DNA of 64,000 nucleotides, taken from a virus (lineage: Duplodnaviria > Caudoviricetes). The position numbers were made by a program, and so were the translations under genes. Positions within the stretch are counted from its first letter, which is position 1, and each line of letters starts with the position of its first letter. Below are positions 60 through 27,747 of the stretch, one piece after another. Where the stretch lies: positions 101,480-165,479 of the IMG/VR virus record IMGVR_UViG_3300031760_000003. The stretch is one strand, 5' to 3'. The notes beneath the pieces were generated by a model. It saw nothing but the letters and a program-made list of their open reading frames with translations. It did not search any database and had not been told where the DNA came from.

Positions 60-340
60 TTGTTATTATTAATTAAATATTTAAAATCTTAACTGAGCCT
101 TTTGAGTGAAAGGAGTAAGATATTTTTAATATAGATTTTATAAACTTTAATAAATAACAAGGAGTTTAAAATCCAGCTCTTAATAAAAATAAGACGAATC
201 TATATTTCTATTTTAAAGGGCGGACGCTTCTTGCATGGCATAATTTTATTAAGTTATTTATGTTTCATGTCCTTTAATAATATGACAGTGAATTAAACTT
301 AATATTTTATCTGCATAGAAATATTTTTAAAGAAGGTGTG
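60..340 (+). ncRNA. Structured DGR spacer RNA between TR and RT
   Basis: Inverted repeats ttgttatt(60-67)/aataacaa(153-160), atatttcta(202-210)/tagaaatat(316-324) and ttaaagggc/gtcctttaa. No ORF. Confidence 0.55.
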
Positions 341-10978: not shown

Positions 10979-11899
10979 ATGGCATACGCAATGACAAGTA
11001 AACAATACGTTGATACTCTTGTCCATATTGTAAGGGAATGTAAAACAGTTTATAAAAATAAATTCCCTTACAACTGCGGTTACTATGATGGTGCTACTGG
11101 TAAGTTTTCGTTTGACTGCTGGAATCTTGTTAAATCAGTTATTAACGGATGGAAAGATATAAGAGAAAACGGTTACTATGTAAAAGGTTTCCGTATTACA
11201 GGAGATATTAACGGACAGCAAATATTAAATAAATGTACTACAAAAGGAAAAGATTTTTCAAAGTTATCTATTCCTGGTACTTACCTTTACCTTCCTGGTC
11301 ATGCGGGAAGCTATGTTGGAGAAACTGTTATTAACGGTAAATATTATAACGTTATAGAGTGTACCGGTTCATGGACAAAGAATGTTTTATATTCATGGGT
11401 AGACGCGGACGGCACTAGAAGAAACTTTAAAGGTGGTCGTAAAAATGGTAAATGGACAGATTGGGGCTTAATGTGTTGGATTGACTATTCAGGTGCAACA
11501 CCTACTCCAACCCCTCAGCCTACACCATCGCCGCAACCAGCACCTACTCCTACTCCAAGTGGAAATGAAAGTGCAATAGTATTAGGTAAGTATTACTACA
11601 CAAGTCCTTTTGATAAAACAAAGGTTGATATGGGTTATGTCTTTAATGCCACATATTATGCTAATCATCAGCCAGATATTGCTAATATTAAGAAAGTATA
11701 TGGCACAAAAGATACAGATTTATTCAAACACTTTGTTGACTATGGTATGAAAGAAAGGCGTCAAGCTATAACTAACTTTAATGTGAATATCTATATGAAG
11801 AATTATCCTGAGTTAGTAAAGAATTATGGAAAGAATTATCCGGCTTACTACGAACACTATTGTAGGTTCGGATATAAAGAAGGTCGAAAGGGCATTTAA
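10979..11899 (+). CDS. Endolysin: NlpC/P60-CHAP-like catalytic domain, Pro/Thr linker, C-terminal YPxL...HY..G.KEGR repeats
   Basis: FDCWNLVK (Cys), GHAG (His), PTPTPQP linker; adjacent to the holin. Confidence 0.85.
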   Translation: MAYAMTSKQYVDTLVHIVRECKTVYKNKFPYNCGYYDGATGKFSFDCWNLVKSVINGWKDIRENGYYVKGFRITGDINGQQILNKCTTKGKDFSKLSIPGTYLYLPGHAGSYVGETVINGKYYNVIECTGSWTKNVLYSWVDADGTRRNFKGGRKNGKWTDWGLMCWIDYSGATPTPTPQPTPSPQPAPTPTPSGNESAIVLGKYYYTSPFDKTKVDMGYVFNATYYANHQPDIANIKKVYGTKDTDLFKHFVDYGMKERRQAITNFNVNIYMKNYPELVKNYGKNYPAYYEHYCRFGYKEGRKGI

Positions 11900-17112: not shown

Positions 17113-17139
17113 GATTTTTTATAAAAATTTTGTTATAAT
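17111..17139 (+). promoter_or_regulatory. SigmaA-type early promoter (one of ~20 similar copies)
   Basis: TTGATT-17-TATAAT with extended TG. Confidence 0.75.
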
Positions 17140-17168
17140 AATATTATAAAAATAAAGGAGATTTAAAA

Positions 17169-17312
17169 ATGGATAATTTAATGTTAGCAACTTTAATTCT
17201 TGATATTATTATGTTTAATGCTATTGATAAAAAAGAAAAATGGGGTAAAATTGCAAGTATAACTCTTTCTATTGCTATTATATGTGCCGGAATTAGTTTA
17301 TATCTATCCTAA
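17169..17312 (+). CDS. Small membrane protein (47 aa; not in ORF track)
   Basis: RBS aaggag; two hydrophobic stretches. Confidence 0.6.
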   Translation: MDNLMLATLILDIIMFNAIDKKEKWGKIASITLSIAIICAGISLYLS

Positions 17313-17323
17313 ATAAAATTTTA

Positions 17324-17352
17324 TTGACAAATTAAAAAAATTTTGTTATAAT
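17324..17352 (+). promoter_or_regulatory. Consensus sigmaA promoter driving the tRNA/ncRNA cluster
   Basis: TTGACA-17-TATAAT. Confidence 0.85.
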
Positions 17353-17373
17353 TATTATAGAAAGGATAAAAAA

Positions 17374-17571
17374 ATGATTAAGTTACACGATAATGACAGA
17401 CCCATTTGGGTTTCAGTTAATAACATAATTTCTTTATCTCCTATGGATGACCGTCCGGATGCTCCTACTGAGATAACACTTCCTTATGGAATGCGTTTTC
17501 TGGCAAGAGAGAATATTGAAGAAATTTTCAAAATGATGGCGGAAGATGCGGCAGCCGGTATAGATTCATAA
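17374..17571 (+). CDS. Small hypothetical protein (FlbD-like pattern)
   Basis: MIKLH...PIWVSVNNIISL...TEITL...RENIEEI; RBS aaagga. Confidence 0.55.
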   Translation: MIKLHDNDRPIWVSVNNIISLSPMDDRPDAPTEITLPYGMRFLARENIEEIFKMMAEDAAAGIDS

Positions 17572-17589
17572 CTATCGTTAAAAACGATT

Positions 17590-17663
17590 CGGGATGTAGC
17601 GTAGTTTGGTAACGCGCTTGGTTTGGGTCCAAGAGATCGTGGGTTCGAATCCCACCATTCCGT
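17590..17663 (+). tRNA. tRNA-Pro(TGG), no encoded CCA
   Basis: Cloverleaf; anticodon arm cttgg-tttgggt-ccaag; T arm gtggg-ttcgaat-cccac. Confidence 0.92.
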
Positions 17664-17700
17664 TTTCTATATGAAAAAGATGGTTACTTTAGTAATGTAG

Positions 17701-17802
17701 ATACTATTATATAGTGTAATGGTGGCACACTGGCTCCAGAGCCCATCTAATCAATGGGAAATCAGAGCCGGAGGATAAGGTTCGATTCCTTATTGATGGT
17801 AT
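17701..17802 (+). ncRNA. tRNA-like RNA with enlarged anticodon arm (possibly tRNA-Trp-derived)
   Basis: D arm gtgt-aatggtg-gcac; T arm ataagg-ttcgatt-ccttat; 9-bp acceptor; ctggctc/gagccgg stem enclosing an extra cccat/atggg hairpin. Confidence 0.7.
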
Positions 17803-17812
17803 TAAAAAAATA

Positions 17813-18298
17813 ATACAAAGTGCTGTGAATATAGGCGGAGTAAAAGATATAAGTAATCTCTATCAAATTAATAGAGACCCAAAATCTTCGTTAGGGATTA
17901 AACATGAGAGCTGCTCCTATGGCTGAAGGCTCTTACTTTGTATCTTATTTGTCGAGGAGTGATTACCCTGCTAAAGATGAAATGATATACTCTTTAGCCG
18001 TGCTAATACGTATTAGACGATAGATAAGGGTTATGTATCCTACCTGTACCATAAACAGGGGAACGTATGATAGTGGATACTTTAGCATTTACACTTTTAG
18101 TAGGAAAAATAAGAAATAGTGTTCGGTACTCATACTAATTCCGCATACTATGGAATATTTTTATAAAATCTTAAATTTACAAAGGTTTAGAAAATTGAGG
18201 AGATTTACAATTAGGATGTGGTGTGGCTACGCAAACCACTTTAATAATGTTTCGGCGTAGAGTAGATAAGTATAAATACTTATAAGTTTAAGATTTTA
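17813..18298 (+). ncRNA. Tandem structured non-coding RNA units between tRNAs
   Basis: Three self-closing domains (17813-17943, 17943-18114, 18164-18298) plus a hairpin at 18116-18150; no credible ORF. Confidence 0.6.
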
Positions 18299-18304
18299 AT
18301 TTTT

Positions 18305-18377
18305 GTCCGTGTGGTGTAACGGTTTAGCATAACTGCCCTCCAAGCAGTTGATACGAGTTCGATTCTCGTTACGGGCT
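18305..18377 (+). tRNA. tRNA-Gly(TCC), C33 variant, no CCA
   Basis: actgc-cctccaa-gcagt; acgag-ttcgatt-ctcgt; acceptor gtccgtg/tacgggc. Confidence 0.8.
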
Positions 18378-18378
18378 C

Positions 18379-18449
18379 TGAGTATTCTTTCAATGGTAGG
18401 AAATTTGCCTGATACGCAAGTAACGGTGGTTCGATTCCATCATACTCAA
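18379..18449 (+). tRNA. tRNA-Ile(GAT), no CCA
   Basis: Acceptor tgagtat/atactca; tttgc-ctgatac-gcaag; ggtgg-ttcgatt-ccatc. Confidence 0.8.
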
Positions 18450-18467
18450 TAATAACAAAAAATTTTC

Positions 18468-18496
18468 TTGACAATTTAAAAAATTTTTGTTATAAT
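18468..18496 (+). promoter_or_regulatory. Consensus sigmaA promoter
   Basis: TTGACA-17-TATAAT. Confidence 0.85.
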
Positions 18497-18519
18497 ATAA
18501 GTATAGATAAGAAAAATAA

Positions 18520-18590
18520 CGCGAGTTAGAGGAGCGGCTCCTTGATTGGTTCATACCCAATAGACGCAAGTTCAAATCTTGCACTCGCTA
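18520..18590 (+). tRNA. tRNA-Met(CAT), initiator-like, no CCA
   Basis: C1:U72 mismatch; attgg-ttcatac-ccaat; gcaag-ttcaaat-cttgc. Confidence 0.8.
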
Positions 18591-18681
18591 TTTAGGGCTA
18601 AACCCACCAAGATATTTTACGAATTTTCACTTGTAAAAAGAAAACTAGTGCCGTATATACTAAAAATTTTTAGAAAACTTA

Positions 18682-18710
18682 TTGACATTCTAAAAAATTT
18701 TTGTTATAAT
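18682..18710 (+). promoter_or_regulatory. Consensus sigmaA promoter
   Basis: TTGACA-17-TATAAT. Confidence 0.85.
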
Positions 18711-18755
18711 ATTAGTATAGAAAATAAAAAAACATTTTTTAAAGGAGAAAACAGA

Positions 18756-19106
18756 ATGGATAAGGAACTTTTAATTAGAGTAATTGGTTACGCTTCACAG
18801 GCAGGCGCAGTTGAGGATGTTACAGAACTTACAAACATTCTTAATGGAATTATCAATCCCGTAGTTGAGAAGAAGAAGAGAGCAGCTAACAACACATCAG
18901 GTTACGTTCAGGTAGATGCTGAGACAGGTAAGGAAATCGCAAGATTTGCTACTGTTAAGGAAGCAAACATCGCTCTTGGTAAGAAAGAGACAGCTTCTAA
19001 CGTATCTGATGCTTGCCGCAACTATCAGACAGGTCATTCCAACAAAGCATGGGGATTCGCATGGTACTACGGTTCAGATTTCGATGCTCTTAAGAAGAAT
19101 AAGTAA
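18756..19106 (+). CDS. NUMOD1-like DNA-binding domain protein without a nuclease domain
   Basis: VQVDAETGKEIARFATVKEANIALG...NVSDACR...KAWGFAWYY; start corrected to the ATG after aaggag. Confidence 0.65.
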   Translation: MDKELLIRVIGYASQAGAVEDVTELTNILNGIINPVVEKKKRAANNTSGYVQVDAETGKEIARFATVKEANIALGKKETASNVSDACRNYQTGHSNKAWGFAWYYGSDFDALKKNK

Positions 19107-19225
19107 TTTAACCAGCGGCAAATCAACTATTAAAGCACTTCTAATATAGAAGTGCTTTTTATTTGGTCTATTCTAATTAAAACTTATACTTATCTTTTTA
19201 CATAATTAAAAGGAGGTATTGTTTT

Positions 19226-19426
19226 ATGAGTTATAGATTAACACAGCAAGGTGATGATGTAACATATAACGTAAGAAGTTGCGTAGTAAATAGCGAATCT
19301 GATATTGCTACTTTGCCCACTGATTGGGAATCTGGAAGTAGTGCATTAGTAATTGAAACTTCTACTGTCTTTATGTTATCAGTACCGGACGATATCACTG
19401 GTGAAAAACATTGGGTTGAAATTTAA
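19226..19426 (+). CDS. Small virion-associated hypothetical protein
   Basis: DIATLPT...GSSALVIETSTVFML...WVEI motif common in phage structural regions; RBS aggagg. Confidence 0.6.
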   Translation: MSYRLTQQGDDVTYNVRSCVVNSESDIATLPTDWESGSSALVIETSTVFMLSVPDDITGEKHWVEI

Positions 19427-19518
19427 GCAGCTTTATTTAATCTCTTATGTACAAAAGTTAAATTATTGTAGAAGATAAAATCCTTAAAATAGTTTAAATA
19501 ATATAGGAGGAAAGGTCC

Positions 19519-19848
19519 ATGGAGAAACTAATGTCTATAGTTACATATCTTGGTATCTTTGGTATACCCACAATATTTTCTATGGCAAGCTGGTGTCTCG
19601 CAAGAACCTTTAAATTTGCGGGACAGTTAAAAATTTTAATGAAAGCCCAACAGGCTCAAATGCGTGGTGAGTTGCTTAAAGATTATTACCGTTTTATGGA
19701 TAAAGGTAATGTTACTGACCTTGAGTTAGACGATTGGGAGAATAGATATTCAGCCTATCATCAGTTAGGTGCTAACGGAGTTCTGGATAGAAGAAGAGAT
19801 CAAATACTGAATCTTCCTTGCATATCATCACAACTTGACAATCATTAA
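19519..19848 (+). CDS. Holin-like membrane protein (YxxLGxNG family)
   Basis: N-terminal TM helix; RYSAYHQLGANG motif. Confidence 0.6.
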   Translation: MEKLMSIVTYLGIFGIPTIFSMASWCLARTFKFAGQLKILMKAQQAQMRGELLKDYYRFMDKGNVTDLELDDWENRYSAYHQLGANGVLDRRRDQILNLPCISSQLDNH

Positions 19849-19927
19849 AATTTTTGTTATAATAAAGGGGTAAAAAGAAATTTTTACCCCCTTATTTTTT
19901 TTGAGACAAAAGGAGTAAAGCAGAAAT

Positions 19928-21394: not shown

Positions 21395-23980
21395 ATGTCT
21401 TCATATAGTATTTTTAATACGACATTAAGCTCTATTGGTAGAGCATTAAGATATAGATTAAATGAAAACAACTATTATCATCCGAGTGAAATGCCAGATG
21501 CTATAAATAGGATTCCATTAAAACTGCAAGACCCTTACCCTCTTAATCAAAATGTTGCTTTTGTTAATATTTACTCTTTTAATGAATCTTGGAATTATTA
21601 TATTGTAGATAATGCTAATGTGCCAAATGCATATGGTAATATAACACGTATATCTGCCGGATATGGCATTCCAATATATGCAAAGACATATCATGGTAAT
21701 TGTTATTTATTTACCAATGAAGGTTATACTTTTCCAGAGCATCTTTACGGTTATGGAGGTTCTTATTATGGCGCTATGAATTGGATAATTAATCGTAAAA
21801 TATTAACTAATTATGTATCATATTTCTCATTTATAGAAAATTTTACATTAGAAAATATTCTTTCATATAATTTTAGTAATCTTAAATATCTCGATTCTAG
21901 TTATATTTTAGGTAGCACAAATAATTTATCTTTCTTAAACAACTACAATATAAAATATTTAGGTGGTATTACTCCTTTAGATACTTGTTATATGGAAGAA
22001 CCTTGGATCGGCAATCAAGTAGAGGCATTACGAAGCACCTATTCTTCACAAAATTTTATTTTTAACTGTCAAAGAATAAAATGTCCTCAAAGTGTAAAAT
22101 ATATGAGTTTAAGTTTTTCCTCAACAATGGGACGACCTACAGAAGCAGAAATTCCAGAAGGGCTGATTGTAGGTTATGGTGCATTTCAATTTAGTAATAA
22201 AATACAACATTATTATTGCAATGGCGCAAATAGCTTAACAAATTTAAAATATGCTCAATATATGTTTGCAAGAGACAATGGACCCATAGATGTCACAATA
22301 GAGAATAGAATAAATTTTCATTTTAATTTTAATACTCCCTATATTATGAATTATCAAATGATTTTTAGAGATACTCCATATTATGGACCGGTATTAAAAA
22401 AACCTATCACTTATGTTTTAACAAATGAGGGTCTTATGTGGCTTTATTCTTCCGGTTTAGTGCAGTCAACAAATATTTTAAACTCCCAACAAGTAATTTT
22501 AAATAATATAGACAGAGATCTACCTAAACATGGTTATGAATTTTCGGATATATGTTTCCCTTATACCAGTGGAACTTTAGAATTTATTGTTGCTAATGTA
22601 GATGATTTTGGACAGTTTAATAATTCTTATTTTAAATTTGGCAATATTACAATGTTAAATAATAACGGCACACTTAATTTCAGAGATTTTCTTTATCCAT
22701 GGTCAATAAATGAGTATACTTTAAATCGATATCCTTTTATAACTCAAACAAATGTAAAAACTATAGGAGATTTTGGAGATATTTATTCTGCGGGTAATAT
22801 TTATGCTTATTATATTGATTGGCAATCAAAAGGAAGACGTAATACGAATTTCTTCCCGCATTTAACTTGCGGTGGAATAAATGTTGGTAATATAATCTGT
22901 GAAAAAAATTTTGAACAAATTATAGGGTTTCAAACGAACTTTGCCCCTACAGCATATGCTCCAAATATGACTTCAATAGGCAGTTATAAAAATATAATTT
23001 CATATAATGGAGATATTGATACAGGAGATATGCAAGGGACTCCTTTTGTCTTATCCAATAAAGAAGCTCCTCCTAATTATAGGTGTAATTACCTTACAAT
23101 AGGTAATATAATAGCATATAATGGAGATATTAATTTAAACATGATGCTTTACAAAAAAGCTTTAGGCGGTTGTACTGAAGGATTTCAATGCCATGATATT
23201 ATTGGACAAAATATTAATTTATCCTACCTATGTTATATTCAGAGTGGGGCTGATCAAGGATATAATACTATTAACCATTATTTAATAAATGCTCCTAAAA
23301 TACATGATATTATAGCAACACATAATATAAACTGTGGATATGGTCTTTTCCCTACTGGTGGTAATTTTCCATATCTTAGAAATGGAATATCTATAAATCT
23401 TTTAAAAGCAGATAATATTTATTTATATGATGCATTTTACAGAGGCGGTATTATTGGACAGCATTATAGTATAGAAAATTTAAAAAATTTAGGCTCTATT
23501 AACTTAATTGAATGTAATAATTTAAATGGATCTTCATGCTTTGAAGGATATAGTGGTGGGGATCCTTCGTTACAAACTAATATAGACCAATTTGAAATGA
23601 ATATTAAATGTTCTAACAATTTATATTGGGGTTATTCTTTAAAGTATAGTTTTTATAATAATGCTATTTTTAGATTTTATTATAACCAAAATTCTGCATC
23701 TATAAATCCCTCGATAGATATTAGATTTGTAGATTGGATTGCCTATGCTAGAGCAGCATTATATCATAAAATTACAGTTTATGTTGAAAAAGGTTCCCCC
23801 TATGACTTACAATTGTATAATGGAGGTCAAATAAATAACCAGTTTATTAATTGTTATTGGGATACTAATGAAACTACTGGGCAACCTGAACTTATCTCTA
23901 ATTACAATATGATTTGGACAGTGATTCCAAATGGATATTGTAATAGCAAATCAAATATCTATATTTACAATAATTTATAA
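21395..23980 (+). CDS. Large tail fibre / receptor-binding-like protein
   Basis: TTLSSIGRALRY...PSEMPDAINRI fibre N-terminal motif; Asn/Tyr-rich repeats. Confidence 0.6.
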   Translation: MSSYSIFNTTLSSIGRALRYRLNENNYYHPSEMPDAINRIPLKLQDPYPLNQNVAFVNIYSFNESWNYYIVDNANVPNAYGNITRISAGYGIPIYAKTYHGNCYLFTNEGYTFPEHLYGYGGSYYGAMNWIINRKILTNYVSYFSFIENFTLENILSYNFSNLKYLDSSYILGSTNNLSFLNNYNIKYLGGITPLDTCYMEEPWIGNQVEALRSTYSSQNFIFNCQRIKCPQSVKYMSLSFSSTMGRPTEAEIPEGLIVGYGAFQFSNKIQHYYCNGANSLTNLKYAQYMFARDNGPIDVTIENRINFHFNFNTPYIMNYQMIFRDTPYYGPVLKKPITYVLTNEGLMWLYSSGLVQSTNILNSQQVILNNIDRDLPKHGYEFSDICFPYTSGTLEFIVANVDDFGQFNNSYFKFGNITMLNNNGTLNFRDFLYPWSINEYTLNRYPFITQTNVKTIGDFGDIYSAGNIYAYYIDWQSKGRRNTNFFPHLTCGGINVGNIICEKNFEQIIGFQTNFAPTAYAPNMTSIGSYKNIISYNGDIDTGDMQGTPFVLSNKEAPPNYRCNYLTIGNIIAYNGDINLNMMLYKKALGGCTEGFQCHDIIGQNINLSYLCYIQSGADQGYNTINHYLINAPKIHDIIATHNINCGYGLFPTGGNFPYLRNGISINLLKADNIYLYDAFYRGGIIGQHYSIENLKNLGSINLIECNNLNGSSCFEGYSGGDPSLQTNIDQFEMNIKCSNNLYWGYSLKYSFYNNAIFRFYYNQNSASINPSIDIRFVDWIAYARAALYHKITVYVEKGSPYDLQLYNGGQINNQFINCYWDTNETTGQPELISNYNMIWTVIPNGYCNSKSNIYIYNNL

Positions 23981-23995
23981 AAAGGAGGAAGTAAA

Positions 23996-24889
23996 ATGCC
24001 AGATACCTATCAAGAAATTTACAAAATTACAGATACAGAATTGAAAAAAATAGAAGATGCAATTCGTTTTAAAAAAAACTATCCTTCTTCTTATCTAATA
24101 CCCACTGCATCTACAGATTATTTTATAAATACATTGGTTACAAATCAAGATATTGCTAGTTATATAAACACTTTTCCATATCCCGTTTTAAAACCACACT
24201 CTGTTTTTTATTATGGTGTTGACAGTTTACCTATTATGAATAATCCTTTTCATAATTATAATACTGTATTAGGAGATTCTTTAATAAGTGGTCAAATTCA
24301 TTTATTAAACTCTTATTTACAATGTTACAATCTGGAATATAATCATGCTTTTTATTTTGAAGCAAATGAAATTGGAACTCCTTTAATTAAAGGATATTTT
24401 TGGAATGGAAATACTTACCTTTATAATACCTCACCTAACCCAATAGTGGTTTATAATAATTGGCAGTATAACAATATTGTAGTAGAAGATAGGAGCTCTT
24501 TTATTTTAAATTATTTTACTCCTATCTCCAATTTAAATCTGCCGAATACTCAAACTATGGGAGTATATTTTGGAATTGTAAATACTAAAGGTCGTCGTAG
24601 AAATAGCCAATATACAAGAGATTATGGATACTTTTTTGAGCCTAATTATTTTTTAGAAAGATATTATGATACTATTCCTGCGGCAAGTAGGGTCAATAAT
24701 ACTACGTTATGGCAATATTTTTACAGCAAACAATTCACTGAACGAGCTGGACAATATATGTATGCTTTTAATGTAATGAATTACCGAAATAAATATAGTG
24801 ACTTAAATGCTGCTTTTGGTTATACTTGGGGATATTATTATGGACACTATGTAGTTAGTGGTTATAATGAGGGAAGAAGAGCCCCTTAA
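23996..24889 (+). CDS. Fibre-like protein with C-terminal endolysin-type YxDL...HY..G..EGR repeats
   Basis: TELKKIEDAIRFK N-terminal motif; FNVMNYRNKYSDLNAAFG...YYGHYVVSGYNEGRR. Confidence 0.6.
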   Translation: MPDTYQEIYKITDTELKKIEDAIRFKKNYPSSYLIPTASTDYFINTLVTNQDIASYINTFPYPVLKPHSVFYYGVDSLPIMNNPFHNYNTVLGDSLISGQIHLLNSYLQCYNLEYNHAFYFEANEIGTPLIKGYFWNGNTYLYNTSPNPIVVYNNWQYNNIVVEDRSSFILNYFTPISNLNLPNTQTMGVYFGIVNTKGRRRNSQYTRDYGYFFEPNYFLERYYDTIPAASRVNNTTLWQYFYSKQFTERAGQYMYAFNVMNYRNKYSDLNAAFGYTWGYYYGHYVVSGYNEGRRAP

Positions 24890-24897
24890 AAATAAAA

Positions 24898-25256
24898 TTG
24901 ACATTTTAAAAAATTTTTGTTATAATAAATATATAATAAAAAAGAAAATAATTTGCACCAAAAAAGGAAAACCTTGAAAATTATTTTCACTGTGAATATT
25001 ATTAACGGAATATTTACTTTACTCCGGTACTTAATAACAAAGCGGTCTTTAATCTTAAAAATATTTTTAACATTCATTTTACTCCACCGTTAATGGAGAA
25101 ATGGACACACCGCTATATTAAAATGAATGTTAAAAATAAAAATTTTTCTTGACAACTTAAAAAATTTTTGTTATAATAAATATATAAGATAACAAAATAA
25201 AAATTTTTTTAAAAGAAATAAAAATTCTTGACAAATTAAAAAATTTTTGTTATAAT
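24898..25256 (+). repeat. Three near-identical sigmaA promoter repeats
   Basis: TTGACA-17-TATAAT-aaatat at 24898, 25149 and 25228. Confidence 0.85.
24944..25138 (+). ncRNA. Putative structured small RNA with complementary (kissing) loops
   Basis: Hairpin loops attaacgg (25001-08) and ccgttaa(t) (25087-94) are exact complements; 19-bp closing stem 25062-80/25120-38. Confidence 0.65.
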
Positions 25257-25272
25257 AAATATGTAAGATAAA

Positions 25273-25884
25273 AAATATGAACTTTGACAATTTTTATGTT
25301 AAACCCATTGATAAACAGTAATTACTTATTACTGGTGGGGTATCTCGGAAATCGGAGATGATATTGAGAAGGATACTTTTCTATATTGTCTTTCTTAATA
25401 GGAGTAATTCTATTAAACAAGGCTAGGAACCAAGCGGTAAGAGATAGCATATACTATATCGCTTTATAGTGCAGGGTAAGTGTCGGCAGAGGAATAAAAA
25501 GTTAATCGAAAGATTAGCCTCTCTAGAACACTAATACAGGTGGTGCTGATTAGGACGTTCTAGAAAAACCAACAATCTGCTTCGGTGTGAACTGAAGAAA
25601 TTCAGGTATAAGACATTTATAGACGACTCTGAGTAGCTCAATGTGACGCCGTAGTCCATTCTAATTGGAAAATGTAAGTCAAATCAAGTAATGATTTAAT
25701 TTTTTGCTGAAAAAGCTGGGTGAAAGGTACGAGTAAACAATCTCGTTATGGCTTAGAAAGGGATAGAGAAGCAATTGGGTAGCTCCCATTTGCTCAGCCT
25801 CTGTTCTCCATATCGCATAATAATAAAGAAGGTATAGTATATAGTGCGAAGGCACTTCCATAAAAATTATCAAAGTTCATATTT
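25273..25884 (+). ncRNA. Large ornate ncRNA, ROOL-like (~610 nt)
   Basis: 25/26-bp terminal stem; many internal helices and a GAAA tetraloop; GC richer than flanks; no ORF with an RBS; starts just after consensus promoters. Confidence 0.65.
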
Positions 25885-25901
25885 AACACAAGAGGTAAGA
25901 T

Positions 25902-26045
25902 ATGTTTATATTAGATAAGATTAGGGAATTTCTTTTTAACAGAAAATGTCCTAGTCCAAAAATTCGTTGTTCGGTTTGCCCTTACTTTTATACTGATGAT
26001 AATAAAAATCGTAGATGCAAACTAATCGAAAAATATAAAATTTGA
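25902..26045 (+). CDS. Small Cys-rich protein (47 aa; not in ORF track)
   Basis: MFILDKIREFLFNRKCPSPKIRCSVCPYFYTDDNKNRRCKLIEKYKI; RBS gaggt. Confidence 0.55.
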   Translation: MFILDKIREFLFNRKCPSPKIRCSVCPYFYTDDNKNRRCKLIEKYKI

Positions 26046-26078
26046 TTTTTTCTATATTACTGCCTTTCTTTATATATA

Positions 26079-26116
26079 GCCCTTAATATCTTTTGATATT
26101 AAGGGCATTTTTTTTT
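26079..26116 (+). terminator. Rho-independent terminator fused to the next promoter
   Basis: gcccttaatatc-tttt-gatattaagggc plus a T tract running into TTGATT-17-TATAAT. Confidence 0.75.
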
Positions 26117-26181
26117 GATTTTTTATAAAAATAATGTTATAATTATAATATAAAATGATGAAAAAAAAGGAGTTAATATTT

Positions 26182-26481
26182 ATGCAAGACAGTCAGTTTT
26201 TTTGTACTCGATGCGGGAGGCTCGGGATACCTATTCAGAGAAGAAATGGTAGAAAAAGAGAGGCTGGACATTTAAAAAAATTATGGTGTTTAAATTGTAA
26301 AGATGAGGTTAATCACGTCGAGGTTAAAATGGGAACTCATTATAGTAAAGAAGATTTCGATTTAGAGTTTACCTATGGCAACTTCGATAAAGATGGTAAC
26401 AGGATATATCCCTATGGTATCTTTAAAACAAAAGTACACAATGGCGAAATAACATTAAAAGGAGATGATACTAATGAATAA
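26182..26481 (+). CDS. Zinc-ribbon protein (bL33-like pattern)
   Basis: CTRC...HLKKLWCLNCK..VNHVE; start moved to the ATG after aggag. Confidence 0.55.
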   Translation: MQDSQFFCTRCGRLGIPIQRRNGRKREAGHLKKLWCLNCKDEVNHVEVKMGTHYSKEDFDLEFTYGNFDKDGNRIYPYGIFKTKVHNGEITLKGDDTNE

Positions 26482-26977
26482 TAAAGAATTATATATTATG
26501 GTTGGATGTCCTGGTTCTGGTAAAGACTATTGGATAGAACATCATAAGCACGGTTTTGAAGGAAATGTTGGTATTATCAGTAGAGATAAAATCAGATACT
26601 CTAAGTTAAAAGAGGGAGAAGATTATTTCTCTCACGAGCCTGAAGTGTTTAGAGATTTTTGCTCTCAGATAAATGAAAGTTTAATAAAAAATGATGTAAC
26701 AATAGTAAATGCTACACACTTAAACAGACCTTCAAGATACAAACTTTTCAAAAATATAAAGTGTCCTGCGGGCACGAGAAGAATCGCTATGGTCATTAAC
26801 ACCCCGTTAAAGACCTGTCTTGAACAGAATGCCCGCCGCGAAGGACTTGCTAAAGTTCCCGAGGATCAGTTAAAGAATATGTTTGAAAATTTAACTATTC
26901 CTTCTCTTGAAGAGGGATTTGATACTGTATATATTTATTCAATAAACGGTGAAAGAGAAGTATATAAAATAATTTAA
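26474..26977 (+). CDS. AAA_33 / polynucleotide kinase-like P-loop kinase
   Basis: MVGCPGSGK Walker A, ISRDKIR, NATHL, CLEQNARR. Confidence 0.85.
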   Translation: MNNKELYIMVGCPGSGKDYWIEHHKHGFEGNVGIISRDKIRYSKLKEGEDYFSHEPEVFRDFCSQINESLIKNDVTIVNATHLNRPSRYKLFKNIKCPAGTRRIAMVINTPLKTCLEQNARREGLAKVPEDQLKNMFENLTIPSLEEGFDTVYIYSINGEREVYKII

Positions 26978-26991
26978 AGGAGTATAAAACT

Positions 26992-27747
26992 ATGCCAGTA
27001 CATGATGAGTTAGGAAAAAGAATGAAAGGATATGAAGCAGTACCTAAAACCGTATTAATGAAACGGACACCCGTTGCGATTAGAATCGACGGAAAAGCCT
27101 TTCATACCTTCACTAGAGGATTTAAAAAGCCTTTCGATAATATATTAGTAAAGTCAATGCAGGAGACAATGATATACCTTTGTGAGAATATACAGGGGTG
27201 TGTTTTTGGATACTGTCAGTCAGATGAAATCACTTTAATCTTAACTGACTATAAAACTTTTGATACCGCCGCATGGTTTGATTATGAAGTTCAGAAACTT
27301 TGTTCAATATCTGCGTCAATGGCAACTATGACTTTCAACAAGTTCTTTGCTAAGAATGTATATACAACTCCGTATATATCAGATTATTATGAGATATATA
27401 CCAAAGCAATAGAAAAAGGAGCCATGTTTGATTCAAGATGCTTCAACATTTCAAAAGAAGAGGTATGCAATCTTGTATACTGGCGGCAGCTTGACGCCAC
27501 CAGAAACGCTATACAGATGGTAGGACAGGCTTATTTCTCTCATAAACAGCTTCAGAATAAATCCTGTGCAATAATACAGGAAATGCTTTTCCAGGAAAAG
27601 GGTATCAATTTCAATAATTATCCCGTATATTTAAAGAGAGGAACTGCTTGTTATAATACTGAAAATGGTTGGTTATTAGACCTTAATATGCCAATTCTTA
27701 AAGGTGAAGATAGAAATTATGTAGATAAATTGATTAATTTTGAGTAA
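26992..27747 (+). CDS. thg1: tRNA(His) guanylyltransferase Thg1-like protein
   Basis: RIDGKAFHTFT, QSDEITL, FDSRCF and WRQLDATRN motifs. Confidence 0.92.
   Translation: MPVHDELGKRMKGYEAVPKTVLMKRTPVAIRIDGKAFHTFTRGFKKPFDNILVKSMQETMIYLCENIQGCVFGYCQSDEITLILTDYKTFDTAAWFDYEVQKLCSISASMATMTFNKFFAKNVYTTPYISDYYEIYTKAIEKGAMFDSRCFNISKEEVCNLVYWRQLDATRNAIQMVGQAYFSHKQLQNKSCAIIQEMLFQEKGINFNNYPVYLKRGTACYNTENGWLLDLNMPILKGEDRNYVDKLINFE

What the first reader, a model, noticed from the sequence alone, without database searches (positions are those of the whole stretch)
24944..25138. Unrecognised ~195-nt RNA with exactly complementary hairpin loops, upstream of the ROOL-like RNA
Seen: it has its own consensus promoter (24898). 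Stem 1 is gaaaataattt/aaattattttc. Hairpin gtgaatatt-ATTAACGG-aatatttac (24992-25017) follows. A 19-bp stem (25062-80/25120-38) encloses ctcca-CCGTTAA-tggag. The two loops are reverse complements over 7-8 nt, and a second long-range pair, agcggt (25041-46)/accgct (25109-14), is possible. Known: loop-loop pairing builds phi29 pRNA rings and ornate-RNA multimers. Inference: a new self-assembling or doubly pseudoknotted phage RNA, perhaps a partner of the large ncRNA next door. This is my best candidate for an undescribed element.
Basis: partly seen in the sequence, partly recalled or inferred. Interest (0 to 1): 0.75.

Follow-up and report, generated by a model that had tools for sequence, protein, structure and literature searches.

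The report
New folded phage RNA beside ROOL
The flagged stretch is a real, conserved, non-coding folded RNA of about 200 bases that a small group of rumen/gut phages carries, with its own strong promoter, just before their ROOL "nanocage" RNA; its hairpins are supported by compensating mutations, but the pairing between its two complementary loops is conserved and not yet proven.

Summary
I found five further versions of the element (92-97% identical) in rumen/gut metagenome contigs. Each keeps the order promoter, element, promoter(s), ROOL.

- **Boundary:** homology between the phages begins at the -35 box of the first promoter; the genes upstream are unrelated to one another.
- **Non-coding:** both small ORFs in the element are frameshifted in relatives.
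- **Structure:** across the six versions every substitution in hairpins H2, H3 and H4 keeps pairing. H4 has two compensatory pair positions. H3 has a compensating base-pair insertion. Nine cells are G.U, which would be C.A mismatches on the other strand. So this is a plus-strand RNA.
- **Alternative fold:** RNAalifold's version, with loop 1 paired to the linker, breaks in several variants.
- **Loops:** UUAACGG and CCGUUAA are conserved, with one G-C to G.U change. There is no covariation, so the kissing contact is plausible but unproven. Such loop matches are common by chance in this AT-rich window.
- **Relatives:** nothing matches in Rfam 15, and two covariance models find no copy outside this clade.

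Not shown: transcription, RNA ends, multimer formation, or any link to ROOL beyond adjacency. The scan had not noted this RNA on other DNA. Verdict: an undescribed, clade-restricted phage RNA of moderate interest.

The parts
24898..24926 (+). Promoter P1: TTGACA, 17-nt spacer with TG, TATAAT. The predicted transcript start is near 24933.
   Evidence: 12/12 consensus match. Invariant in all six variants, and homology between the phages starts at its -35 box. It belongs to a 14-copy promoter class of this window, several copies of which lie just upstream of tRNA genes and ROOL.
24944..24988 (+). Domain H1: an 11-bp stem (24944-54 with 24978-88) carrying an apical 4-bp hairpin (24964-67 with 24972-75).
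   Evidence: Present in the MFE and consensus folds. Stems invariant in six variants; the only change is one loop C-to-U in L299. This means strong conservation but no covariation.
24992..25017 (+). Hairpin H2: 7-9 bp, with loop L1 at 25001-08 and conserved core UUAACGG at 25002-08.
   Evidence: Two one-sided changes keep pairing: G.U to A-U at 24994, and A-U to G.U at 24996. The L1 core is invariant in six variants. H2 is the MFE fold in L204 and L207, and lies within 1.7-2.3 kcal/mol of the MFE in the window and L294.
25018..25040 (+). Hypervariable, probably unpaired linker.
   Evidence: Pairwise identity 14-16 of 21 positions over 25020-40, well below the roughly 93% of neighbouring regions. 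The alternative helix pairing it with L1 holds only 80.6% and 91.7% of cells.
25041..25046 (+). AGCGGU, proposed 5' strand of a second long-range helix (PK2) with 25109-14.
   Evidence: Perfect 6-nt complement. Invariant. Its partner shows one C-to-U change in L309, which gives G.U. Unproven.
25062..25138 (+). Domain H3: a 20-bp stem (25062-81 with 25119-38) enclosing H4 and a 20-nt 3' bulge (25099-25118). The bulge may form a 4-bp hairpin and contains ACCGCU at 25109-14.
   Evidence: L309 carries an extra U in the 5' arm and an extra A in the 3' arm, which is a compensating base-pair insertion. It also has a tandem U.G/G.U from A25069G and A25132G.
25082..25098 (+). Hairpin H4: 5 bp (25082-86 with 25094-98), with 7-nt loop L2, CCGUUAA, at 25087-93.
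   Evidence: Six of its ten stem columns vary and all cells stay paired. C84-G96 becomes U-A in three variants, C85-G95 becomes U-A in L294, and there are three U.G intermediates. The loop is conserved apart from C25087U in L207.
25149..25256 (+). Tandem promoters P2 (25149-77) and P3 (25228-56) in front of ROOL, separated by a variable A/T spacer.
   Evidence: Both are 12/12 matches. L309 has only one of the two, and the spacer varies in length.
25280..25875 (+). ROOL RNA. It is the neighbour, not part of the element.
   Evidence: RF03087, 261.6 bits, model positions 1-574 of 574.

Best explanation
The element is an undescribed non-coding RNA of about 200 nt (about 24933 to about 25140, plus strand). 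It opens a conserved phage RNA module laid out as P1, this RNA, P2 (and P3), ROOL, a 47-aa Cys-rich ORF, a terminator, and then an RNA-repair operon.

It folds into three hairpin domains:
- H1, a bipartite hairpin.
- H2, which presents loop L1 (UUAACGG).
- H3, a 20-bp stem carrying H4, whose 7-nt loop L2 (CCGUUAA) sits at the tip, and a 20-nt bulge.

Inferred mechanism:
- L1 and L2 form a 7-bp loop-loop (kissing) helix within one molecule. A 6-bp contact between AGCGGU (25041-46) and ACCGCU in the H3 bulge may assist. Together these would pull the RNA into a compact, sequence-constrained shape.
- No terminator follows H3. RNA started at P1 therefore probably reads on into ROOL, and the small RNA would be released by processing, perhaps at the 20-bp duplex, or would stay as a 5' extension of some ROOL transcripts.

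Shown: conservation, non-coding status, strand, and helices H2, H3 and H4.
Inferred: transcription from P1, the RNA ends, the two tertiary contacts, and intramolecular rather than intermolecular pairing.
The biological role is unknown. From its fixed position I guess that it works with the ROOL and RNA-repair module.

The confidence of 0.6 is for the statement as a whole. That it is a real plus-strand structured non-coding RNA element I put at about 0.85, and the L1-L2 contact alone at about 0.5.
For: - **Promoter:** P1 is a perfect extended -10 promoter of the class that in this window sits before tRNA genes and ROOL.
- **Variants:** six distinct versions come from independent metagenome contigs and all keep the element. 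The genes upstream of it are unrelated in size (297, 197, 496 and 178 aa), and sequence identity there falls to about 35%.
- **Selection:** H1 and both H3 arms are invariant between the window and three variants, while ROOL and the neighbouring genes differ by 2-8%.
- **Non-coding:** the ORFs on both strands are frameshifted or truncated among variants, and neither is in a collection of about 15 billion predicted proteins.
356 of 356 cells are standard pairs, against 41-51% when partners are slid by 1-3 columns.
- **Compensation:** H4 has two compensatory pair positions, and H3 has a compensating U/A insertion.
- **One-sided changes:** all nine one-sided states keep the pair. Under a rough model in which half of transitions would do so, this has probability 0.002.
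- **Strand:** nine G.U cells would be C.A mismatches on the minus strand.
- **Energetics:** the L1-L2 duplex is worth -6.0 to -8.6 kcal/mol. That is more than the 1.7-2.3 kcal/mol by which a competing local fold wins in two variants.
- **Conservation of tertiary columns:** 2 of 26 vary, against 22 of 80 other unpaired columns (p = 0.056).
Against: - The six variants are close relatives at 92-97% identity.
- The shuffle control for covariation is only marginal, with 30 of 500 shuffles reaching the observed score.
- H1 never varies, so nothing tests it.
- Neither tertiary helix shows a two-sided change. Each shows one C-to-U change, which about half of all transitions would tolerate.
- Seven-nucleotide loop complementarity between neighbouring hairpins is common by chance in this AT-rich DNA.
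- Other unpaired parts, such as the H1 loop and the H3 bulge, are just as conserved as L1 and L2. Loop conservation therefore does not single out the kissing contact.
- No expression data could be obtained, and no 3' end signal was found.
- No homologue exists outside the clade.
Confidence: 0.6

Rival explanations
1. The element is a leader or processing element rather than an RNA with a job of its own. It would be the 5' leader of the longest ROOL transcript. The perfect 20-bp H3 duplex would serve as an RNase III-type processing site or a transcript-stabilising hairpin. Alternatively the leader could modify RNA polymerase, as put-type antitermination RNAs do. On this reading the loop complementarity is incidental.
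For: - No intrinsic terminator lies between P1 and ROOL. The only terminator-like site in 23500-27000 is at 26079-26106.
- The U-run after H3 is shortened in L309.
- In all six variants the element sits at a fixed position directly before the ROOL promoters.
- Related phages also string promoter-driven RNA units together without terminators.
Against: - P2 and P3 lie downstream of the element, so most ROOL transcripts would lack it.
- Conservation extends over H1, L1, L2 and the bulge, which is far more than a cleavage site needs.
- ROOL in eight related phages has no such leader.
Confidence: 0.2
2. The complementary loops pair between molecules, L1 of one copy with L2 of the next. This would give dimers or closed rings as in phi29 pRNA, or would dock the RNA onto another RNA such as ROOL.
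For: - The loops complement each other rather than themselves, which allows head-to-tail assembly.
- Both loops are conserved.
- ROOL, the neighbour, is known to form cages held partly by kissing loops (PMC12286853).
Against: - Nothing distinguishes intermolecular from intramolecular pairing.
- By my own geometric estimate, the 44-nt connection between H2 and H3 is long enough for an intramolecular contact. Such a contact would be kinetically favoured.
- Complementarity to ROOL is at chance level: 25 shared 7-mers against 18.8 expected, and 5 shared 8-mers against 5.2 expected.
Confidence: 0.12
3. The element acts at the DNA level. TTAACGG and CCGTTAA would be two inverted copies of a protein-binding site about 85 bp apart, forming an operator or looping site that controls the promoter cluster. 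Alternatively the AT-rich hairpin region could be an origin or packaging site.
For: - In double-stranded DNA the two motifs are the same site in opposite orientation.
- The region lies among three strong promoters.
- H1 and H3 are invariant at the sequence level.
Against: - The stem flanking one motif (H4) changes freely but always keeps RNA-type pairing. This includes G.U states that mean nothing in duplex DNA.
- A matched U/A insertion preserves H3.
- The motif's other eight occurrences in the window include three inside one coding region, where it reads Ile-Asn-Gly. I did not examine the rest.
Confidence: 0.04
4. The stretch encodes a small hydrophobic protein. The candidates are a 39-46 aa plus-strand frame with an AAGGA box before a TTG, and a 63-aa minus-strand frame with GGTGGAG before its ATG. 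This could be the toxin of a type I toxin-antitoxin pair.
For: - Both frames are open in the window.
- Both have Shine-Dalgarno-like boxes (read).
Against: - One-base and two-base indels shift or truncate both frames in L204, L207 and L294.
- There are no Pfam hits.
- Neither product is in the protein collection.
Confidence: 0.02

Closest known systems
ROOL RNA (Rfam RF03087) and other ornate phage RNAs such as GOLLD
   Same: Phage-borne and non-coding, driven by strong promoters in a tRNA and RNA-repair neighbourhood. Conserved complementary loops could make kissing contacts, which are documented in ROOL and GOLLD structures (PMC12286853).
   Different: The element is about 200 nt rather than about 600 nt. 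It lies wholly outside the ROOL match, which covers the full model at 25280-25875. It has no sequence or model similarity to ROOL. ROOL in eight related phages lacks it. No multimer has been shown.
The description is from my own knowledge.
   Same: A small phage RNA with two loops complementary to each other, which could in principle link copies head to tail.
   Different: No Rfam family, pRNA included, reached E <= 10 on this stretch in a way that suggests relatedness. The pRNA loops pair over 4 nt, whereas here it is 7 nt. The genomic setting differs: this is an RNA module, not a genome end beside packaging genes. Ring formation is untested.
ColE1 RNA I / RNA II and related antisense kissing complexes, in which 7-nt loops pair fully. 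From my own knowledge.
   Same: A 7-nt hairpin loop on a short stem can pair with its partner loop over all seven bases.
   Different: Those loops sit on two antisense transcripts of one locus and control replication. Here both loops are on one strand of one transcript, and no antisense promoter is evident.
Promoter-driven unknown RNA units in tRNA/ROOL islands of related phages (for example L090, about positions 1020-1500)
   Same: The same promoter type and layout recur: promoter, short unannotated RNA, promoter, ROOL.
   Different: No detectable homology. Covariance models R1 and R2 do not match them.

Membership tests
ROOL RNA (RF03087) | Match to the ROOL covariance model covering the stretch | tested here: not met
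   The ROOL match is complete (model 1-574) at 25280-25875 and does not include 24944-25138. No ROOL hit falls in 24800-25279 in the E <= 10 scan of 24800-25300.
Any Rfam 15 family (including phage pRNA, T-box, 6S, tRNA) | Score at or near a family's gathering threshold | tested here: not met
   The best hit is Phe_leader at 27.6 bits against a gathering score of 55, E = 0.016, on the AU-rich H3 stem only. All other hits have E > 0.2.
Intrinsic (Rho-independent) terminator | G+C-rich hairpin directly followed by a U-run | tested here: not met
   The terminator scan reports nothing at H3. H3 has 2 G-C pairs in 20, five A residues separate it from the U-run, and that run is cut to AUUCUU in L309.
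Small protein gene or type I toxin | Open reading frame conserved among relatives | tested here: not met
   Both frames are shifted or truncated in L204, L207 and L294.
Structured non-coding RNA (generic) | Helices kept through compensatory and wobble changes on one strand | tested here: met
   H4 has 2 compensatory pair positions, H3 has a compensating pair insertion, and H2 has 2 wobble changes. All 356 cells are paired, and there are 9 G.U cells specific to the plus strand. Only six close variants are available, so support is modest.
Kissing-loop (loop-loop) tertiary contact | Covariation between the two loops | tested here: inconclusive
   L1 is invariant. L2 has one C-to-U change, which turns G-C into G.U. 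No two-sided change is available.
Self-assembling RNA multimer (pRNA-like or ornate-RNA-like) | Oligomer observed, or intermolecular contacts required by the geometry | not testable with these tools
   Needs native PAGE, SEC-MALS or cryo-EM of the transcript.
Anticodon-arm mimic (H4 plus L2) | 5-bp stem, 7-nt loop, U at loop position 2, purine at loop position 6 | tested here: not met
   Stem and loop sizes fit, and position 6 is A. Position 2 is C in all six variants, whereas U33 is near-universal in tRNAs (my own knowledge).

The most novel reading that the evidence does not exclude
The two conserved complementary loops act in trans. Copies of this 200-nt RNA would then link head to tail into dimers or rings, or the RNA would be a dedicated accessory or cargo of the adjacent ROOL nanocage. 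That would give the first small-RNA partner for an ornate phage RNA.
Probability: 0.12. Interest if true: 0.85.

Novelty: new variant of a known kind. Interest (0 to 1): 0.5.

Why it matters
ROOL and GOLLD RNAs form large RNA-only cages whose function and partners are unknown (PMC12286853). Here a conserved structured small RNA is fixed to the 5' side of ROOL, within a module that continues into RNA-repair genes (a PNK-like kinase, a Thg1-like enzyme and a phosphoesterase). That makes it a concrete candidate to test alongside ROOL, for example by co-expression, co-purification or deletion in a phage-host pair. It also adds an uncatalogued RNA family with a simple, testable tertiary-contact hypothesis. 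Its narrow distribution (one clade, six variants) and the lack of expression data limit its reach for now.

Tried and rejected
**Searches that found no relative**
1. blastn against 50,697 phage records: no match.
2. Second copy in the phage's own 165-kb genome: only itself.
3. nhmmer of the element against 80 loci of related phages: nothing.
4. Exact or gapped DNA patterns in viral contigs and genome contigs: nothing. The loose loop-only pattern gave 112 chance hits, none with both motifs in hairpin loops.
5. Covariance models R1 and R2 found only the clade itself. They were run against 37 whole genomes of related phages, about 140 loci, 12 bacterial genomes or MAGs, and 151 genomes of the family of a Lacrimispora genome.
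6. The upstream 297-aa protein and the 47-aa ORF have no relatives beyond their own 90% clusters. A 70%-identical Zn-ribbon relative (L298) has neither ROOL nor the element upstream (R1 scan).

**Readings tested and set aside**
7. RNAalifold's alternative fold, with L1 paired to the linker, looked supported by one compensatory pair among three sequences. It breaks in L294, L299 and L309, so I rejected it.
8. Pairing of the element with ROOL is at chance level. A whole-length duplexfold gave an uninterpretable result.
9. Both ORFs are rejected by frameshifts.
10. The cluster of TTAACGG at 11142-11337 is coding, reading Ile-Asn-Gly.
11. A resemblance of UGGACACACCGC in the H3 bulge to the T-box consensus has no Rfam T-box hit, so I dropped it.
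12. The 16-nt palindrome at 25055-70 is not conserved, because position 25061 varies.

**Not available**

Full report
**Setting**

- The window is the last 64 kb of a 165,479-bp IMG/VR virus record rated 100% complete.
- Rfam places a full-length ROOL RNA at 25280-25875 (261.6 bits) and four tRNAs at 17.6-18.6 kb.
- Downstream of ROOL lie a 47-aa ORF, a strong terminator at 26079-26106, and an operon. The operon encodes a Zn-ribbon protein, an AAA_33/PNK-like kinase, a Thg1-like enzyme, a metallophosphoesterase and a PhoH/PIN protein (gene tables).
- Thg1 relatives in bacterial assemblies are mostly Lachnospiraceae and other Clostridia, which suggests the host group.

**Checking the observation**

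- P1 is a perfect TTGACA-17-TATAAT promoter with a TG extension. Two more perfect copies sit at 25149 and 25228.
- The spacer-plus-(-10) motif of this promoter occurs 14 times in the window against 0.16 expected. Several of the plus-strand copies lie just upstream of the tRNA genes and ROOL.
- The plus strand of 24936-25150 folds at -43.1 kcal/mol, z = -5.5.
- Loop complementarity alone is weak evidence. With loose hairpin criteria, 7-nt loop-loop matches between neighbouring hairpins occur dozens of times in this AT-rich window and about 18 times in shuffles.

**Finding relatives**

- Direct DNA searches failed.
- Phages related through Thg1, at 59-68% identity in the 80 loci kept, carry ROOL in only 8 of the 50 genomes searched. 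There it sits inside tRNA arrays and without this element.
- Close relatives came from exact-protein look-ups of the neighbouring genes.
- This gave six distinct versions: the window, L204, L207, L294, L299 and L309. They come from JGI and ENA metagenome contigs.
- All keep the order P1, element, P2 (and P3), ROOL. L309 has one promoter fewer.
- The genes upstream are different in each (297, 197, 496 and 178 aa). Identity drops to about 35% immediately 5' of the -35 box. P1 is therefore the left edge of a conserved module.

**Coding or not**

- The plus-strand frame (39-46 aa) and the minus-strand frame (63 aa) are broken by 1-nt and 2-nt indels in the relatives.
- Neither has a Pfam hit, and neither was ever called as a protein.
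- The stretch is non-coding.

**Secondary structure**

The model comprises H1, H2, H3 and H4, the loop-loop helix, and the AGCGGU/ACCGCU helix. Slid controls give only 41-51%.

| Helix | Evidence from the variants |
|---|---|
| H4 (5 bp) | Six of ten stem columns vary. C84-G96 becomes U-A in L207, L299 and L309, with U.G in L204. C85-G95 becomes U-A in L294, with U.G in L207. U83-A97 becomes U.G in L204. |
| H3 (20 bp) | Invariant in five variants. L309 has an extra U in the 5' arm matched by an extra A in the 3' arm, plus a tandem U.G/G.U. |
| H2 (7-9 bp) | Two wobble-type changes, both keeping the pair. |
| H1 (11 + 4 bp) | Never varies, so it is untested. |

- Nine G.U cells would be C.A mismatches on the minus strand, so the RNA is read from the plus strand.
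- The caveat is that the variants are close kin. The shuffle control is marginal, at 30 of 500.
- RNAalifold's alternative, in which L1 pairs with the downstream linker, looked attractive with three sequences. It holds only 80.6% and 91.7% of cells with six.
- That linker is the most variable part of the element.
- H2 is the minimum-energy fold in two variants and lies within 1.7-2.3 kcal/mol of it in two others.

**Tertiary contacts**

- L1 (UUAACGG) is invariant.
- L2 (CCGUUAA) has a single C-to-U change in L207, which turns the terminal G-C into G.U.
- ACCGCU has a single C-to-U change in L309, again giving G.U.
- These changes are compatible with pairing but do not test it.
- The 26 candidate tertiary columns vary less than other unpaired columns: 2 of 26 against 22 of 80, p = 0.056. 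The H1 loop and the rest of the H3 bulge are equally conserved.
- The L1-L2 duplex is worth -6.0 to -8.6 kcal/mol.
- By my own estimate, the linkers are long enough for both contacts to form within one molecule: 23 nt from H2 to AGCGGU, and 15 nt from there to H3.
- I rate the loop-loop contact about even odds, an intramolecular contact as likelier than an intermolecular one, and a ROOL partnership as unsupported beyond adjacency.

**What it is**

- It is a real, uncatalogued, plus-strand structured RNA element restricted to one small phage clade.
- No terminator separates it from ROOL, and the U-run after H3 is not conserved. P1 transcripts therefore probably continue into ROOL.
- Whether a separate RNA of about 200 nt is released, for instance by cleavage in the 20-bp H3 duplex, is unknown.
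- Expression data could not be obtained.

**Comparison with known systems**

- It is not part of ROOL, not a pRNA, not a T-box, not a terminator and not a small-protein gene (see the membership table).
- It resembles other unannotated promoter-driven RNA units in the tRNA/ROOL islands of related phages in layout only.
- The published ROOL and GOLLD structures show kissing loops as a building principle of phage RNAs. In the passages I searched, the paper names no small-RNA partner (PMC12286853).

**Verdict**

This is a new RNA family of a known general kind, of moderate interest.

Noticed in passing
window 25902-26045 (+): The 47-aa ORF right after ROOL is intact in all six variants, with a few amino-acid changes and four conserved cysteines (C16, C23, C26, C39). 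It has no Pfam hit and no relatives outside its own 90% cluster. It is probably a real mini zinc-finger-like protein that is always linked to this ROOL.
   Followed up: partly
window 25149-25256; L309 about 1050-1130: The two ROOL promoters P2 and P3 are a tandem duplication. L309 has only one, and the A/T spacer between them varies in length. Logan contigs break at the first of these repeated promoters.
   Followed up: partly
window 17122-19863, 24909-25256 and others: A promoter class containing AAAAATTTTTGTTATAAT occurs 14 times in the window (0.16 expected). Several copies lie just upstream of the tRNA genes and ROOL. The copies at 18693 and 19846 may drive further unannotated RNAs.
   Followed up: no
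window 213-277 (+): Partial Rfam match to RT-2 RNA (RF03077): 46.9 bits against a gathering score of 40, covering model positions 95-157 of 222. This hints at a reverse-transcriptase-associated RNA elsewhere in the phage.
   Followed up: no
L090 about 1020-1500; L089 and L091 upstream of ROOL: Related phages carry other short, promoter-driven, unannotated RNA units between tRNAs and ROOL. One has a tRNA-like T-arm sequence. They are not homologous to the element studied here.
   Followed up: partly
window 23996-24889 compared with L204 1419-2012, L207 505-1995 and L299 178-714: The gene just upstream of P1 is replaced by unrelated genes of 197, 496 or 178 aa in otherwise near-identical phages.
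   Followed up: partly
L300-L302, L304 (Thg1 gene): The Thg1-like gene is called as 267-272 aa in some variants and 251 aa in the window, so its C-terminus is variable.
   Followed up: no
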